DNA of 64,000 nt from a virus. Shown piece by piece: positions 13,521 through 50,331 of this stretch (the first letter of the stretch is position 1; each line of letters starts with the position of its first letter). The notes beneath the pieces were generated by a model. That model saw nothing but the letters and a program-made list of their open reading frames with translations. It was not told the DNA's origin and ran no database searches. The translations under genes were made by a program, and so were the position numbers. The DNA is taken from IMG/VR virus record IMGVR_UViG_3300043444_000221, positions 1-64,000 of that record; one strand, written 5' to 3'.

Positions 13521-14040
13521 ATTAGTAGAACATTTGGATAATGTTAACAAGGTAGTGGAGAGGTACCTTGCTGGCAGTGATCCAACACAGATTTCTAAAG
13601 AGCTTGCTATGCCAAGACAAACTGTTGTTGGCTATATTTCAGAATGGCGACAGATGGCTGCAGACAATGCTGCTATTCGTGCTCGTGCTAAAGAGGCATT
13701 GGTTGGTGCTGACACACACTACAGCAAGCTAATCTCCAAGGCCTACGAGGTTATTGATGAAGCAACAACAACTGCAAATCTTAATGCAAAAACCCAGGGT
13801 ATTAAGTTGGTTATGGATCTTGAGAAGACACGTATTGAGATGCTTCAGAAGGCAGGATTGCTTGAGAATAAGGAGCTTGCCGAAGAAATGATTGAAATTG
13901 AGGAAAGACAAGAAGCCCTAATTCAAATTCTAAAAGACATTGCGTCTGAATATCCAGAAATTCGTGATGAAATTATGAGAAGGCTGTCTAAGGTTAGTAA
14001 ACAAAAAGAGACAATAACGATTGTGAATAATAATGTTTGA
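13510..14040 (+). CDS. HTH protein, possible terminase small subunit
   Basis: N-terminal HTH (PTQISKELAMPRQTV); directly upstream of the large terminase. Confidence 0.55.
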   Translation: MEDKLVEHLDNVNKVVERYLAGSDPTQISKELAMPRQTVVGYISEWRQMAADNAAIRARAKEALVGADTHYSKLISKAYEVIDEATTTANLNAKTQGIKLVMDLEKTRIEMLQKAGLLENKELAEEMIEIEERQEALIQILKDIASEYPEIRDEIMRRLSKVSKQKETITIVNNNV

Positions 14041-15811
14041 TGACTTTTTAGAGGCACTAAAGGCTGATAATTTTGAAGAGCGTCCAGTAGATGCTAAAAC
14101 CTTTGTTGAGGGTGAGGACTATCTCAATCAGCCACCGCTATCTGAAATTCAGTATGACATTGTGGAGGCCATGAGCCAAATCTACAAACTGGAAGATCTT
14201 ATTGATCTAATGGGAGAAACTGATGGTAGAAGGTATTACAAGAAGTATACTAAGAATGAAGTTATTCTTCAGCTGGGCAAGGGTTCAGGTAAAGACTTTA
14301 CTTCTACGGTTGCATGTGCTTACATTGTGTATAAGCTACTTTGCCTTAAAGATCCTGCACGTTATTTTGGTAAGCCTAGTGGCGATGCCATTGATATCAT
14401 TAACGTTGCTATCAACGCACAACAGGCGAAGAACGTATTCTTTAAAGGCTTTAAAACAAAAATTGAAAAGTCGCCATGGTTTGCTGGAAAGTATAACCCA
14501 AAGGCAGAGTCTATTGAGTTTGACAAATCTATCACAGTATACTCAGGTCACTCCGAAAGAGAGTCTCACGAGGGTCTCAACCTTATCCTTGCAGTTCTTG
14601 ACGAGATCTCTGGTTTTGCTACAGAAATTGGAACTGGTAATGATCAGGGTAAAACTGCAGACAATATTTACAAAGCGTTCCGTGCATCTGTTGACTCTCG
14701 TTTCCCAGATCTTGGAAAGGTAGCACTACTATCGTTTCCACGTTTTCCTGGAGACTTTATTTCTACAAGATACGATGCAGTAATTGCAGAAAAAGAAGTT
14801 GTCACAAAACAGCATAAATTTATTATGAATGAAGATTTGCCAGCAGATGCTGAGGGTAACTCTTTAGAAATTGAGTGGGATGAAGATACCATCGTTAGCT
14901 ATAAATATCCAGGTATGTTTGCCCTTAAGCGTCCTACCTGGGTAGTAAATCCAACTCGTAAGATTGATGACTTTAAGCTTGCATTCTTTACTGACATGGG
15001 TGATGCTATGCAACGTTTTGCCTGCGTACCTACATATATGTCTGATGCATTCTTTAAGCAAAGAGACAAGGTTCGTGCAGCAATGACTGTCAGGAATCCT
15101 CTAGATCAGTTTAGAAGATTTGAGCCATCATTTGAGCCAGATCCAGAAAAACTTTACTTTGTTCATGCTGACCTTGCACAGAAGCACGACAAATGTGCTG
15201 TTGCAATTGCTCACGTAGAAAAGTGGGTAAATGTCCAGGTAGTTAAAGACTATCAGCAAATTGCTCCAATCGTAGTAGTAGATGCAGTAGCATATTGGGA
15301 GCCAAGAATTGAAGGGCCAGTTGACCTGTCTGAAGTGAAGCAATGGATTCAAAACCTAAGAAGAGTTGGATTCAATATTGGATTGGTATCATTTGACCGC
15401 TGGCAATCATTTGATATTCAGAATGAGCTGAAGCAGATTGGCATGAGAACGGACACTGTTTCTGTTGCCAAAAAGCATTATGAAGATATGGCTATGCTAG
15501 TCTATGAGGATAGATTGGCTATGCCTGCAATAGACCTGTTGTTCGAAGAACTAACAGAGCTAAAGATTACTAAGAATGGTAAGAATGTTGACCACCCACG
15601 AAAGCTGTCTAAGGACTTAGCAGACGCTGTGTGTGGTGCCATTTTTGGTGCTATAAGTCACACACCAAGGGACCTAAACCTTGAAGTTGAGGTTCATACC
15701 TTTAAAGATAGACCAAAGACTGAACTTGACAAGCAAAAAGATAGTGTGATACAATATAAATCTATGCCAAAAGAGGTAAAAGACTATTTGGATAGATTCA
15801 ATTTAATCTAA
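14033..15811 (+). CDS. Terminase large subunit
   Basis: Walker A GKGSGKD, Walker B VLDE, nuclease motifs HADLA..D and DHP....KDLADA. Confidence 0.9.
   Translation: MFDDFLEALKADNFEERPVDAKTFVEGEDYLNQPPLSEIQYDIVEAMSQIYKLEDLIDLMGETDGRRYYKKYTKNEVILQLGKGSGKDFTSTVACAYIVYKLLCLKDPARYFGKPSGDAIDIINVAINAQQAKNVFFKGFKTKIEKSPWFAGKYNPKAESIEFDKSITVYSGHSERESHEGLNLILAVLDEISGFATEIGTGNDQGKTADNIYKAFRASVDSRFPDLGKVALLSFPRFPGDFISTRYDAVIAEKEVVTKQHKFIMNEDLPADAEGNSLEIEWDEDTIVSYKYPGMFALKRPTWVVNPTRKIDDFKLAFFTDMGDAMQRFACVPTYMSDAFFKQRDKVRAAMTVRNPLDQFRRFEPSFEPDPEKLYFVHADLAQKHDKCAVAIAHVEKWVNVQVVKDYQQIAPIVVVDAVAYWEPRIEGPVDLSEVKQWIQNLRRVGFNIGLVSFDRWQSFDIQNELKQIGMRTDTVSVAKKHYEDMAMLVYEDRLAMPAIDLLFEELTELKITKNGKNVDHPRKLSKDLADAVCGAIFGAISHTPRDLNLEVEVHTFKDRPKTELDKQKDSVIQYKSMPKEVKDYLDRFNLI
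15726..15755 (+). promoter_or_regulatory. Sigma70-type promoter
   Basis: TTGACA-N18-TACAAT upstream of 15842. Confidence 0.6.
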
Positions 15812-24889: not shown

Positions 24890-25749
24890 GAATATCTTTA
24901 TCAGTTGCTGCATCAATATTTGCTGCAAGTCCTGCACATGCAATCTATGAAGGCTATGATGCAAATGGAGACAAGCTTGTGTCAGCAACATACATGGGGA
25001 ATGGTTGTTCAGTAGCACCAATTGCTAAGCGACTATTGGTTATGGCTCAGCATTGCCCAGCTATCCCAAATCAAACCAAGTATGTATATCCTGGTGAACC
25101 TGCAAACTCTAATAATACAGTAACTGCACTAAAAACTTTTGTTCCACAGGGAGAGTTTAAGGGTGGCCGTGAATACGACATCATGATTGTTGTGGTTGAT
25201 AAGGATCTTCCATTATCAGACAATCTGCTGATTGCAACTGAGCAGGATGTGCAAAGATTTATTGCAAACAATAATGAGATAGTTACATATGGATTTGGTC
25301 TGACAGAGTCAAAGTCTTCATCTACCACTGCAAAAAAGGCAGTCTTTAAAATGTTTGAGGGCATAGATGGGGCAGTTTCTAGTTCATATAAGTACTCACT
25401 CTCTCTGACTCCAGTTAATGGTAAGCAAGAAGTATGTAATGGAGACTCAGGTGGACCATCATATGTGTTTGACTCTGACAAGATCTACTACATTGGTGCA
25501 ACTATTGCTTCAAATAAAATGAATGGATGTGGATCAGATCAACATCTTGCACCAATTGCAAGAGTACAAACTCTATATCCATTTCTAGATATTTTTAAAA
25601 ATGCTAGTGATTGGGTGTTGCAAACTCAGCCGAAATCTGATACAATAGTAGAACCAAAGCAGGAAACAATTACTGCGGTGGCAAAACCTGTAGTTAAAAA
25701 GAAGGTTGTAATTAAGAAACCTGTCAAGAAAACTACAAAGAAAAAATAG
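24859..25749 (+). CDS. Secreted trypsin-like serine protease
   Basis: Signal peptide ending PAHA; AQHC, DIM, GDSGGP triad; Lys-rich tail. Confidence 0.88.
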   Translation: MLSRSKTYSVGISLSVAASIFAASPAHAIYEGYDANGDKLVSATYMGNGCSVAPIAKRLLVMAQHCPAIPNQTKYVYPGEPANSNNTVTALKTFVPQGEFKGGREYDIMIVVVDKDLPLSDNLLIATEQDVQRFIANNNEIVTYGFGLTESKSSSTTAKKAVFKMFEGIDGAVSSSYKYSLSLTPVNGKQEVCNGDSGGPSYVFDSDKIYYIGATIASNKMNGCGSDQHLAPIARVQTLYPFLDIFKNASDWVLQTQPKSDTIVEPKQETITAVAKPVVKKKVVIKKPVKKTTKKK

Positions 25750-25755
25750 AATAAT

Positions 25756-25828
25756 TGCCCTATAGCTCAGCTGGCAGAGCGTCCGACTGTTAATCGGCAG
25801 GTCCCTGGTTCGATCCCAGGTGGGGCAG
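25756..25828 (+). tRNA. tRNA-Asn(GTT)
   Basis: Cloverleaf; TGCCCTA/TGGGGCA acceptor stem; GTTCGATC. Confidence 0.93.
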
Positions 25829-25832
25829 CAAA

Positions 25833-26014
25833 CACATTGACGACGGTTGATGTGGAGTATGACCGAATAATTCCCAAAGTCAAATGGGGGGAATAAGGTA
25901 CTATCGGATCTTAGCGGATCGTCTTAGCGGACAAACGGTAGGTGTGCTCAAAAGCGGTACTTGATGAACCGTATTGACTAGGCACTGGTGGTAAAAGGCA
26001 ATCCACCTACTCAC
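25833..26014 (+). ncRNA. Candidate structured ncRNA A (between tRNAs)
   Basis: Several nested helices, tandem TTAGCG-loop hairpins, possible pseudoknot; no ORF. Confidence 0.65.
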
Positions 26015-26018
26015 TCTT

Positions 26019-26092
26019 GGTCCTGTAGCTCAGTTGGTTAGAGCACTACCCTGTCACGGTAGGGGTCGCCAGTTCAAGTCTGGTCAGGATCG
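26019..26092 (+). tRNA. tRNA-Asp(GTC)
   Basis: Cloverleaf; CTACC-CTGTCAC-GGTAG anticodon arm. Confidence 0.93.
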
Positions 26093-26093
26093 C

Positions 26094-26260
26094 TCAGAAG
26101 CATAAGTCTGAACAACTTATGTGGAGATTGTTATACTGAAATCTGCACCGTGGACGCATCATACGAAGGGGTTCAGCCCGATGGAGATTGCTCTGCTAAT
26201 CCACTAGGTATAACAGCCAATGGGAATAGTTCCTTAACCAAAAGGTGACCACGATTGGCA
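26094..26260 (+). ncRNA. Candidate structured ncRNA B (between tRNAs, pseudoknotted)
   Basis: Compact H-type pseudoknot plus further helices; no ORF. Confidence 0.6.
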
Positions 26261-26263
26261 AAT

Positions 26264-26338
26264 GCCTTCTTAGCTCAGTGGTAGAGCAACGCACTTGTAA
26301 TGCGTAGGTCGTCAGTTCAATCCTGACAGAAGGCTCCA
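26264..26338 (+). tRNA. tRNA-Thr(TGT)
   Basis: Cloverleaf with encoded CCA. Confidence 0.95.
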
Positions 26339-26339
26339 T

Positions 26340-26411
26340 GGCCCCATCGTCTATCGGTTAGGACTTCAGATTTTCAATCTGGCAAGACGGGTTCGATTCC
26401 CGTTGGGGCTG
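26340..26411 (+). tRNA. tRNA-Glu(TTC)
   Basis: Cloverleaf; TCAGA-TTTTCAA-TCTGG anticodon arm. Confidence 0.9.
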
Positions 26412-26432
26412 CTATAATAGTATTGGAAAGGT

Positions 26433-27125
26433 TTGGATATGGAAAAGCCTCCTATTATAACGCATGACATCAATAATTTTGAGATCTGGTATGAAACCAA
26501 AGATCCAAACTTTACTGAACTATCAAGACGATCAAACATCCCAATGAATTGGATGTCATATCAAGTGGTCCTATCTGGAGATAACAAGGACTCAATCATT
26601 AAGCCTATAAATAGGTATGTTGAAAGACTAGTTCCGCCACCAAAGCTAATAAGTATTAAAGATAATATTGTTAGACTTCGTCAGGGCAACCACGCAGAAA
26701 TGTTTTTGCTAGAAAAAGAAGACGGAGAGTTTTATAATGTTGATCGTCCGTGGCAAAGACAATACTATAATACTGCCCTAGACCTTGAAGCAGAAGACTG
26801 CTTTCCTGGAACTTTTAAATTCTATGTCCCATGGTTTATTGACGAAAACATTCCAGTGTATTTTCATCCATCAGAAGAAGAAAGCCCATTCTACACGTTT
26901 CCAACAATGGCTCCATATCACAAAGTACCGTCAGACGTAAGATTTGTTGAGCCACACTTTGTTCCATTTAGATTTAAGAGAGTTGGCTCTCATATGATCA
27001 ACGATAAGTTTGGTAAAATACCAAGACAGTCTGCAATGTATGACATGGTTTTCTATGCAGATGATATAATAATAGAAAGAGTAAAGGAATTCTATGACAA
27101 ACATAATTCAGTTTTATCCGCTTAA
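26433..27125 (+). CDS. Hypothetical protein
   Basis: Long ORF heading the operon; start uncertain. Confidence 0.7.
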   Translation: MDMEKPPIITHDINNFEIWYETKDPNFTELSRRSNIPMNWMSYQVVLSGDNKDSIIKPINRYVERLVPPPKLISIKDNIVRLRQGNHAEMFLLEKEDGEFYNVDRPWQRQYYNTALDLEAEDCFPGTFKFYVPWFIDENIPVYFHPSEEESPFYTFPTMAPYHKVPSDVRFVEPHFVPFRFKRVGSHMINDKFGKIPRQSAMYDMVFYADDIIIERVKEFYDKHNSVLSA

Positions 27126-50168: not shown

Positions 50169-50245
50169 GGGGCAGTAGTTCAGAAGGTTAGAGCGTCACT
50201 CTTATAAGGTGAAAGTCGTGGGTTCAAGTCCCACCTGCCCTACCA
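50169..50245 (+). tRNA. tRNA-Ile(TAT)
   Basis: Cloverleaf; TCACT-CTTATAA-GGTGA anticodon arm; ACCA end. Confidence 0.9.
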
Positions 50246-50246
50246 T

Positions 50247-50320
<74 letters not shown>

Positions 50321-50331
50321 CAAATGATATA

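What the first reader, a model, noticed from the sequence alone, without database searches (positions are those of the whole stretch)
26094..26260. Pseudoknot-rich ncRNA candidate B directly after tRNA-Asp
It begins 1 nt after the discriminator with a compact H-type pseudoknot, TCAGA-AG-CATAAG-TCTGA-ACAA-CTTATG. Next is the hairpin GTGGAGATT/AATCTGCAC, whose loop GTTATAC pairs with GTATAAC (26208). Further helices are GTGGA/TCCAC, CATC/GATG, GGG/CCC, and GCCAAT/ATTGGC enclosing CCTT/AAGG. tRNA-adjacent ribozymes are known in phages, but I could not fit this to the HDV-like or hammerhead cores.
Basis: partly seen in the sequence, partly recalled or inferred. Interest (0 to 1): 0.72.

Follow-up and report, generated by a model that had tools for sequence, protein, structure and literature searches.

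The report
New folded RNA between phage tRNAs
The 171-base gap between two tRNA genes of this uncultured freshwater phage encodes a conserved, intricately folded non-coding RNA of an uncatalogued family that always sits flush between phage tRNA genes; its function is unknown, and it is not a recognisable ribozyme.

Summary
Window 26093-26263 (+) is one member of a conserved structured RNA family: 64 hits (about 53 distinct sequences) on uncultivated viral contigs from about 50 datasets. It was absent from Rfam 15, from 50,697 isolate phages (blastn) and from a pattern scan of 185,579 prokaryote species.

Every complete member lies flush between two tRNA genes, and the tRNA identities vary. RNase Z/P-type tRNA processing should therefore excise it as a free RNA of about 170 nt.

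Covariation supports nine helices: 95.7% of cells pair and 36 of 50 pairs show double changes, against 31-37% pairing in slid controls. It also supports a 6-bp loop-loop pairing, CUGAAY (26108-26113) with RUUCAG (26171-26176).

The hairpin GTGGAGATT/AATCTGCAC and the helix CATC/GATG do not. The proposed 5' pseudoknot stem TCAGA/TCTGA is untestable by covariation and competes with the loop-loop pairing.

Freshwater metatranscriptome contigs cover the array but not the flanking genes.

The function is unknown. It is most likely a trans-acting stable RNA. The invariant loops might pair between molecules, as in the neighbouring manA RNA.

This scan has already noted the same family on other DNA.

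The parts
26093..26263 (+). Whole RNA ('candidate B'), 171 nt, running from the base after the tRNA-Asp discriminator to the base before tRNA-Thr
   Evidence: Covariance model R1, built only from the other subfamily, scores it 114.9 bits, E 2e-26, full length. No ORF of 50 aa or more overlaps it. No Rfam match.
26093..26099 (+). 5' leader CUCAGAA.
   Evidence: helix 1: UA 48/49 and CG 48/49; only A-to-G changes opposite U; the G column is present in 9 of 49 sequences.
26100..26122 (+). P1 hairpin: 26100-26107 pairs with 26115-26122 (8 bp); 7-nt loop CUGAACA at 26108-26114
   Evidence: 100% paired; 5 of 8 pairs show changes on both sides. RNAalifold also found it on the MAFFT alignment.
26108..26113 (+). 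L1, CUGAAC: the 5' half of the loop-loop (kissing) pairing with 26171-26176
   Evidence: Six Watson-Crick pairs in 48 of 48 sequences. Five are invariant. One covaries (CG 42, UA 4, UG 2), on two different subfamily backgrounds.
26123..26129 (+). J1/2 linker GGAGAUU with a conserved AGAU core
   Evidence: Invariant or near-invariant columns in A2.
26130..26214 (+). Long arm closed by P2: 26130-26137 pairs with 26207-26214. It encloses the J2/3 bulge at 26138-26149.
   Evidence: P2 is 99.7% paired; 7 of 8 pairs show double changes.
26150..26204 (+). P3: 26150-26153 pairs with 26201-26204 (plus A26154-U26200 in this copy). P3b: 26156-26157 pairs with 26195-26196.
   Evidence: P3 is 100% paired with four pair types at two positions. 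P3b is 98% paired.
26158..26190 (+). P4, the weakest helix; its register is uncertain in this subfamily. Model register: C26160-G26190, A26161-U26188, U26162-A26187. Alternative: GCAUC 26156-26160 with GA(U)UGC 26186-26191.
   Evidence: 78% paired overall, but all 7 pairs show double changes. The helix is clear in the type II subfamily: 92% paired on the MAFFT alignment A3.
26168..26179 (+). P5 hairpin: GGG 26168-26170 pairs with CCC 26177-26179. Loop L5 is GUUCAG, 26171-26176, the partner of L1.
   Evidence: 98.6% paired; 2 of 3 pairs show double changes.
26216..26259 (+). 3' domain. P6: 26216-26221 with 26254-26259. P6b: 26223-26224 with 26249-26250. P7 hairpin: 26232-26235 with 26242-26245.
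   Evidence: P6 and P6b are 100% paired with double changes. P7 is 81% paired with variable content.
26260..26263 (+). 3' tail AAAU, abutting base +1 of tRNA-Thr (the expected RNase P cleavage site)
   Evidence: The downstream tRNA starts within 0-2 nt of the model's end in all 60 hits examined.
26019..26092 (+). Upstream tRNA-Asp (GTC). Its 3' processing would define the 5' end of the RNA.
26264..26338 (+). Downstream tRNA-Thr (TGT). Its 5' processing would define the 3' end of the RNA.

Best explanation
Window 26093-26263 encodes a stand-alone structured non-coding RNA of a previously uncatalogued family that lives inside the tRNA arrays of uncultivated freshwater phages.

It is transcribed as part of the polycistronic tRNA precursor. 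It is then cut out by the enzymes that mature its neighbours: an RNase Z-type (or equivalent) cut after the upstream discriminator, and an RNase P cut before the downstream tRNA. This is 'tRNA punctuation'.

The released RNA of about 170 nt folds into three hairpin-type domains: P1, the long P2-P3-P4-P5 arm, and P6-P7. The near-invariant P1 loop (CUGAAY) base-pairs with the near-invariant P5 loop (RUUCAG).

Shown: family membership, the helices, loop complementarity with covariation, flush tRNA flanks, and presence in RNA libraries.

Inferred: the processing enzymes, and that the RNA acts in trans as a stable RNA during infection. My best guess is that it works as a scaffold that binds a protein or other copies of itself, rather than as a catalyst or a cis-regulator. 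Whether the loop-loop pairing forms within one molecule or between molecules is not resolved.
For: Family and structure:
- R1, built only from 11 type II sequences, finds the window copy at 114.9 bits. In all it finds 64 hits, about 53 distinct sequences.
- On the MAFFT alignment A3, 96.1% of cells pair and 24 of 50 pairs show double changes, against 28-42% pairing and 4-5 such pairs in slid controls.
- On 49 distinct sequences (A6), 95.7% pair, 36 of 50 pairs show double changes, 0 of 500 shuffles reach this, and slid controls give 31-37%.
- RNAalifold independently recovers P1, P3, P5 and P6.

Loop-loop pairing:
- Six base pairs are present in all 48 alignable sequences. One position covaries (CG 42, UA 4, UG 2).
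- Pattern scans that did not specify the loops still returned only members with these loops.

Excision by tRNA processing:
- The element lies flush between tRNAs on both sides in 58 of 60 hits by ARAGORN. Of the other two, L051's upstream tRNA was found by Rfam and L053 is cut by the contig end.
- Flanking identities vary. Upstream: Asp, Asn, Gly, Met, Ile, Arg, Glu. Downstream: Thr, Leu, Trp, Gly, Arg, Ile, Asp, Ser, Met.

Expression:
- Contigs from three freshwater metatranscriptome studies cover 25845-26257 at word depth 180-2100.
- The flanking coding stretches 25500-25745 and 26402-26700 have none.

Not coding, and no internal promoter or terminator.

The known manA RNA occupies the previous spacer in the same flush way.
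Against: - No experiment shows a discrete 170-nt species. The RNA evidence comes from assembled contigs, which cannot show true ends or levels.
- A recurrent adapter-tagged insert end at 26249, inside P6b and 14 nt short of the predicted 3' end, appears in two runs and as a contig end in a third. It could be a real 3' end that removes the P6 3' strand.
- P4 is poorly defined in the window's subfamily.
- Five of the six loop-loop pairs never vary, so the support rests on one covarying position plus invariance.
- No partner protein family is shared by more than 17 of 49 loci.
- The function is entirely inferred.
Confidence: 0.78

Rival explanations
1. RNA-only homo-oligomer. The L1 and L5 loops pair between molecules (head-to-tail), so copies of the RNA assemble into rings, cages or filaments, as shown for the neighbouring manA RNA and for the phage RNAs ROOL and GOLLD. 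This is a variant of the best explanation rather than its opposite.
For: - The two non-self-complementary 6-nt loops are invariant across all members, more conserved than pairing alone requires.
- L1 caps a short 8-bp hairpin next to the base of the arm. L5 is at the far tip of an arm of about 24 bp plus internal loops, so reaching it within one molecule needs a fold-back.
- manA RNAs of under 200 nt form 8-, 10- and 60-mers through intermolecular kissing loops (bioRxiv 10.64898/2026.07.01.735769).
- In ROOL and GOLLD, which are often near tRNA islands, kissing loops first found by covariation proved to be intermolecular (PMC12286853).
Against: Covariation cannot separate cis from trans pairing in a homomer. 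The large J2/3 bulge and the J4/5 internal loop could bend the arm back for a cis contact. There are no structural or biophysical data for this family.
Confidence: 0.35
2. Self-cleaving ribozyme that frees the tRNA-Asp precursor's 3' end.
For: The RNA has a complex conserved fold with invariant unpaired nucleotides. A recurrent RNA-library insert end at 26249 could in principle mark a cleavage site.
Against: - No match to hammerhead, HDV-like, twister, twister-sister, pistol, hatchet or any other Rfam model at E <= 10.
- Both ends lie exactly at tRNA ends, where RNase Z/P act, in every complete member.
- RNA contigs bridge the tRNA-Asp/B junction (records 2 and 10).
- One contig runs past 26249 to 26257.
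Confidence: 0.04
3. Passive spacer or processing insulator. The structure only keeps neighbouring tRNAs from misfolding or sets the order of processing, and the excised piece is degraded.
For: It is always located between tRNAs. No partner or target has been identified.
Against: - Most tRNA junctions in the same arrays are only 0-5 nt, so no spacer is needed.
- About 170 nt, with nine covarying helices and invariant loops, is kept while the flanking tRNA identities are shuffled.
- High depth in RNA libraries relative to adjacent genes.
Confidence: 0.08
4. Cis-acting sensor (riboswitch or attenuator) controlling read-through into the downstream tRNAs, by analogy with the original riboswitch-candidate label for manA.
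For: It has a conserved multi-helix fold with conserved junction nucleotides. manA was first proposed as a riboswitch (PMC2864571).
Against: No terminator or alternative-pairing expression platform is present. The downstream tRNA begins 0-2 nt after the element. The element appears before many different tRNAs.
Confidence: 0.05
5. Decoy for a host tRNA-directed nuclease or enzyme. The P1 loop CUGAAYA resembles the tRNA-Phe(GAA) anticodon loop.
For: The loop reads C-U-G-A-A-Y-A on a stem. Phage tRNA arrays are thought to counter tRNA-targeting defences (general knowledge).
Against: Position 37 is a pyrimidine rather than the purine that tRNAs have there (general knowledge). The loop covaries with the internal GUUCAG loop, which argues for RNA-RNA pairing. 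The resemblance may be coincidence.
Confidence: 0.04

Closest known systems
manA RNA motif (Rfam RF01745; Weinberg et al. 2010, PMC2864571), present in the adjacent spacer at 25835-26017
   Same: Similar size (about 180 nt). It occupies a tRNA-tRNA spacer flush in the same arrays. It is found in uncultivated aquatic phages. It has a multi-hairpin fold with conserved loops. manA assembles through kissing loops.
   Different: No sequence or model similarity: manA does not hit 26093-26263 even at E <= 10. The helix layout differs. B also occurs in many arrays without manA.
Phage T4 species 1 and 2 RNAs (rnaC, rnaD), small stable RNAs at the end of the T4 tRNA cluster
   Same: They are stable non-tRNA RNAs of 119-139 nt encoded directly beside phage tRNA genes; rnaD starts 1 nt after tRNA-Arg. 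Their function is still unknown. They are presumably matured with the tRNAs.
   Different: Not homologous: R1 scores at most 6 bits across the T4 region with filters off. The T4 RNAs sit at the end of the cluster rather than between two tRNAs.
ROOL and GOLLD RNAs (phage and prophage 'ornate' RNAs, often near tRNA islands; PMC12286853)
   Same: They are phage-encoded, associated with tRNA clusters, and have no known protein partner. Their covarying kissing loops turned out to be intermolecular.
   Different: They are three to five times larger (about 580 to over 800 nt) and unrelated in sequence: no Rfam hit. Multimerisation of B is untested.
tRNA punctuation (mitochondrial transcripts), plant tRNA-snoRNA genes, and herpesvirus MHV68 tRNA-miRNA units
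   Same: The same logic applies: non-tRNA RNAs are released by RNase P/Z cuts at flanking tRNAs. This comparison rests on my own knowledge.
   Different: Those are eukaryotic or organellar systems and their cargo RNAs are unrelated.

Membership tests
manA RNA (RF01745) | Match to the Rfam covariance model at or above the gathering score (55.2 bits) | tested here: not met
   cmscan finds manA at 25835-26017 (64.8 bits) but nothing on 26093-26263, even at E <= 10 with permissive filters.
Known self-cleaving ribozymes (hammerhead, HDV-like, twister, twister-sister, pistol, hatchet, glmS and others in Rfam 15) | Match to a family model, i.e. the conserved catalytic core | tested here: not met
   No hit at E <= 10. 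The only hits in the region are noise-level snoRNA models at E 4.6-6.6.
Known self-cleaving ribozymes | Site-specific self-cleavage in vitro | not testable with these tools
   This needs a bench assay. RNA contigs bridging the 5' junction argue weakly against fast cleavage there.
tRNA / tRNA-like | Cloverleaf recognised by ARAGORN or the Rfam tRNA clan | tested here: not met
   ARAGORN and Rfam call only the flanking tRNAs.
T4 rnaC/rnaD stable RNAs | Sequence and structure homology | tested here: not met
   R1 against T4 69000-75000 with filters off: best score 6 bits, E 0.67, and not on rnaC or rnaD.
tRNA-punctuated phage stable RNAs (a functional kind, not a homology family) | Both ends coincide with the ends of flanking tRNA genes | tested here: met
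   58 of 60 hits by ARAGORN, with the upstream tRNA ending at the model start and the downstream tRNA starting within 0-2 nt. L051's upstream tRNA was found by Rfam. L053 is truncated by the contig end.
tRNA-punctuated phage stable RNAs | Accumulates as RNA | tested here: inconclusive
   Metatranscriptome contigs from three studies cover the element at high depth, and the flanking genes have none. Contigs cannot prove a discrete mature species.
RNA-only homo-oligomers (manA, ROOL, GOLLD type) | Conserved complementary loops able to bridge subunits | tested here: inconclusive
   L1 CUGAAY and L5 RUUCAG are invariant and complementary. Sequence alone cannot tell cis from trans pairing.
RNA-only homo-oligomers | Defined multimer seen by SEC, native gel or cryo-EM | not testable with these tools

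The most novel reading that the evidence does not exclude
The two invariant loops (CUGAAY on P1, RUUCAG on P5) pair between molecules, so this 170-nt RNA self-assembles head-to-tail into an RNA-only ring, cage or filament. The 5' leader UCARA would be a competing cap on L1. If so, phage tRNA arrays would encode a set of different self-assembling RNAs (manA, this family, and perhaps the other flush modules) that are produced stoichiometrically by tRNA processing.
Probability: 0.35. Interest if true: 0.85.

Novelty: new variant of a known kind. Interest (0 to 1): 0.68.

Why it matters
Stable non-tRNA RNAs in phage tRNA clusters have been known since T4 (rnaC and rnaD), and none has an assigned function. 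This family adds a well-defined, covariation-supported member with more than 50 distinct sequences and a clean design rule: always flush between two tRNAs, whatever their identity.

It sits beside manA, an RNA long labelled a riboswitch candidate and recently reported to build RNA-only cages. It carries two invariant complementary loops of its own. That makes a concrete, cheap test possible: transcribe it, and run native gels, SEC or cryo-EM with loop-swap mutants.

More broadly, these freshwater phage arrays hold several further unrelated flush modules. This suggests that tRNA operons serve as a general production line for small structured RNAs.

Tried and rejected
- Rfam at gathering and at E <= 10: no family for the element.
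- Single-sequence folding: not better than shuffles, so uninformative.
- blastn of three family members against 50,697 isolate phage records: no match, so no cultivable carrier was found.
- Streptomyces BE-cluster phages Gilson and Coruscant, the nearest terminase relatives at 54-57% identity: neither R1 nor manA is present.
- Pattern scan of 185,579 prokaryote species genomes: 52 pattern matches, all chance, with 0 R1 hits.
- T4 rnaC/rnaD: not homologous.
- Column-pair covariation scan on the MAFFT alignment: swamped by the two-clade phylogeny and not used as evidence.
- Search for a co-occurring protein in 49 loci: no cluster is present in more than 17 loci.
- A kink-turn reading of the conserved YGAA/NAUGGA internal loop was considered by eye. 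It was dropped because the -1b:-1n position and an extra pyrimidine do not fit the canonical motif.
- The supplement of the 2023 IMG/VR structured-RNA catalogue (PMC10690425) was not available. I could not check whether its 'DNAVirus_1850', which overlaps a tRNA-Asp once, is this motif.
- The parts of 25500-26700 without RNA-contig cover, and runs with small word shares (X17 and others), are not used as evidence of absence or habitat.

Full report
**What is in the window**

The window is part of an 80-kb IMG/VR viral contig. ARAGORN and Rfam place four tRNA genes on the + strand:
- tRNA-Asn at 25756-25829
- tRNA-Asp at 26019-26092/3
- tRNA-Thr at 26264-26338
- tRNA-Glu at 26340-26412

The Asn-Asp spacer is a clear member of the known manA RNA family (RF01745): 25835-26017, 64.8 bits against a gathering score of 55.2. 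The finding concerns the next spacer. The discriminator of tRNA-Asp is G26092, so the spacer is 26093-26263, or 171 nt.

It holds no ORF of 50 codons or more on either strand. It has no promoter-like or terminator-like excess. No Rfam family matches it even at E <= 10. Folded on its own, it is no more stable than shuffled sequence (z = -0.88).

**It is a family**

Flanking proteins led to related viral contigs with the same Asn-manA-Asp-spacer-Thr layout and an 88%-identical spacer. Three pattern scans of IMG/VR brought in more sequences. A fourth scan did not specify the loop sequences.

I built a covariance model, R1, from only the 11 sequences of the subfamily that differs from the window's copy ('type II', alignment A3). 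R1 finds:
- the window copy at 114.9 bits (E 2e-26)
- 64 hits in all, at 73-197 bits, about 53 of them distinct, from about 50 IMG datasets
- a single copy in this genome

The family was not found in three other places:
- 50,697 isolate phage records, searched by blastn with three different members
- the nearest cultivated relatives by terminase, Streptomyces phages Gilson and Coruscant
- 185,579 prokaryote species, searched by pattern scan and then with R1

DNA and RNA runs that hold the stretch are freshwater or aquatic metagenomes.

**Structure**

RNAalifold on a plain MAFFT alignment of 22 sequences recovers P1, P3, P5 and P6, with compensatory changes in 14 of 23 pairs. A hand-curated structure was tested on three alignments:

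| Alignment | Sequences | Cells paired | Pairs with double changes | Slid controls |
|---|---|---|---|---|
| A3 (MAFFT, type II only) | 11 | 96.1% | 24 of 50 | 28-42% paired, 4-5 pairs |
| A4 (model-fitted) | 23 distinct | 97.1% | 33 of 50 | 31-38% paired |
| A6 (model-fitted) | 49 distinct | 95.7% | 36 of 50 | 31-37% paired |

For A6, 0 of 500 shuffles reached the observed values. A4 and A6 are fitted to the model and so lean towards it. A3 and the RNAalifold result do not.

In window coordinates:

| Element | 5' strand | 3' strand | Note |
|---|---|---|---|
| P1 | 26100-26107 | 26115-26122 | hairpin |
| P2 | 26130-26137 | 26207-26214 | closes the long arm |
| P3 | 26150-26153 | 26201-26204 | |
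| P3b | 26156-26157 | 26195-26196 | |
| P4 | about 26158-26163 | about 26186-26190 | weak |
| P5 | 26168-26170 | 26177-26179 | hairpin |
| P6 | 26216-26221 | 26254-26259 | |
| P6b | 26223-26224 | 26249-26250 | |
| P7 | 26232-26235 | 26242-26245 | hairpin |

P4 is the weak point. It is clear in type II (TAGAG/CTCTA, CTATTA/TAATAG and similar). In the window's subfamily, two registers are possible.

**The long-range interaction**

The P1 loop CUGAAY (26108-26113) is complementary to the P5 loop RUUCAG (26171-26176) in all 48 alignable sequences. Five of the six pairs never vary. The sixth is C-G in 42 sequences, U-A in 4 and U-G in 2, with no mismatch. The U-A cases lie on both subfamily backgrounds: L006, and L021/L022/L033.

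Scans that did not fix the loops still returned only members with these loops. That includes the very divergent L174.

It is a full 5-bp stem only in the 9 sequences that carry the extra G. Elsewhere, 3+1 bp are possible. Only A/G changes opposite U are seen, so covariation can neither confirm nor exclude it. It may be an alternative state.

Neither is conserved.

**Context and maturation**

In 58 of 60 hits, ARAGORN finds a tRNA ending exactly at the model's start and another starting within 0-2 nt of its end. Of the other two:
- L051's upstream tRNA was found by Rfam.
- L053 is cut by the contig end.

The neighbours vary widely:
- Upstream: Asp 24, Asn 12, Gly 11, Met 7, Ile 2, Arg 2, Glu 1.
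- Downstream: Thr 25, Leu 11, Trp 10, Gly 4, Arg 3, Ile 3, Asp 2, Ser 1, Met 1.

The element thus behaves as a unit in the array equivalent to a tRNA gene. The simplest reading is excision by the tRNA-processing endonucleases. This is an inference from established knowledge of RNase P and RNase Z.

manA accompanies it in only some arrays. No protein family is shared by more than 17 of 49 loci.

**Expression**

Contigs from three freshwater metatranscriptome studies (runs X15, X16, X19) cover 25845-26257, which spans manA, tRNA-Asp and this RNA. Word depths are 180-2100. None of the four RNA runs laid covers the adjacent coding stretches 25500-25745 or 26402-26700. This fits abundant stable RNA rather than DNA carry-over.

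Adapter sequence directly follows 26249 in two runs, on two different sequence variants, and a third run's contig stops there. One contig continues to 26257. I cannot tell a true 3' end from a priming bias.

**What it does**

The function is unknown. I commit to a trans-acting, stable, compactly folded RNA made by tRNA punctuation.

- A ribozyme role is unlikely. No known catalytic core is present, the ends are accounted for by tRNA enzymes, and the 5' junction is bridged in RNA contigs.
- A cis-regulatory role is unlikely. There is no expression platform, and the downstream partners are arbitrary.
- A mere spacer role is unlikely. Most junctions in these arrays are only 0-5 nt.

The most interesting open possibility comes from the neighbours. 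manA RNAs of under 200 nt form 8-, 10- and 60-mer cages through intermolecular kissing loops (bioRxiv 10.64898/2026.07.01.735769). In ROOL and GOLLD, both phage RNAs often near tRNA islands, kissing loops first detected by covariation turned out to bridge subunits (PMC12286853). The two invariant loops here, one on a short hairpin and one at the tip of a long arm, could do the same. I put this at about 35%.

**Novelty**

The kind is known: stable non-tRNA RNAs embedded in phage tRNA clusters. T4 rnaC and rnaD are annotated beside tRNA-Arg and are not homologous to this family. manA, ROOL and GOLLD belong to the same kind.

The family itself is not in Rfam 15 or in the literature I could search. 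A 2023 catalogue of IMG/VR candidate RNAs might contain it, but its supplement was not available.

Earlier notes of this scan describe the same family on other genomes. They include the same P1-loop-to-terminal-loop pairing and call the family uncatalogued. My analysis reached the same conclusion independently before I read them.

Noticed in passing
This placement does not fit manA's original label as a 5'-UTR riboswitch candidate. Adapter-tagged RNA-library inserts run from 25848 and to 26014.
   Followed up: partly
L084:5367-5530, L048, L059, L063, L067, L076, L081 (Trp-Ser/Leu/Gln spacers): A further family of about 140-165-nt modules lies between tRNAs in arrays that carry B: 7 loci cluster by blastn. 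No Rfam family was reported at gathering in the five of these loci that were scanned (L084, L048, L059, L067 and others).
   Followed up: partly
L004:831-1003, L043:1510-1682, L027 (Gly-Asp spacer), L051, L098: Another family of about 170-nt tRNA-flush modules lies upstream of tRNA-Asp. It is not manA at gathering score, and its 5' hairpins carry UAAUC-type loops.
   Followed up: partly
L084:5165-5294, L067, L076, L081; and L048, L080, L082 (276-287 nt): Two more clusters of inter-tRNA modules: about 125-130 nt between Leu and Trp, and about 280 nt after Asn. These arrays seem to hold a whole set of unrelated flush RNAs.
   Followed up: no
L004:1399-1612, L019:4707-4920, L031 (Glu-Trp spacer, 214 nt): A conserved 214-nt spacer contains an ATG-led short reading frame.
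   Followed up: no
window 26249/26250: A recurrent RNA-library insert end falls between the two C's of the P6b 3' strand. It appears in two runs, on two sequence variants, and as a contig end in a third. It could be a real 3' end or a priming bias.
   Followed up: partly
window 26108-26114 and 26171-26176: The P1 loop CUGAAYA looks like the anticodon loop of tRNA-Phe(GAA) except for a pyrimidine at position 37. Its partner loop holds the Phe codon UUC. This is probably coincidence.
   Followed up: no
window 14033-15811 (+): The large terminase is 54-57% identical to those of Streptomyces cluster BE phages (Stanwilliamsviridae). With 40% G+C and freshwater sources, this suggests a phage of low-GC freshwater Actinobacteria.
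   Followed up: partly
window 50169-50321 (+): A second mini-array lies 24 kb downstream: tRNA-Ile(TAT) and tRNA-Arg(TCT), 1 nt apart.
   Followed up: no
L051:8170-8237 (-): The tRNA directly upstream of the element in L051 is missed by ARAGORN but found by Rfam (41 bits). It may be an unusual tRNA.
   Followed up: no
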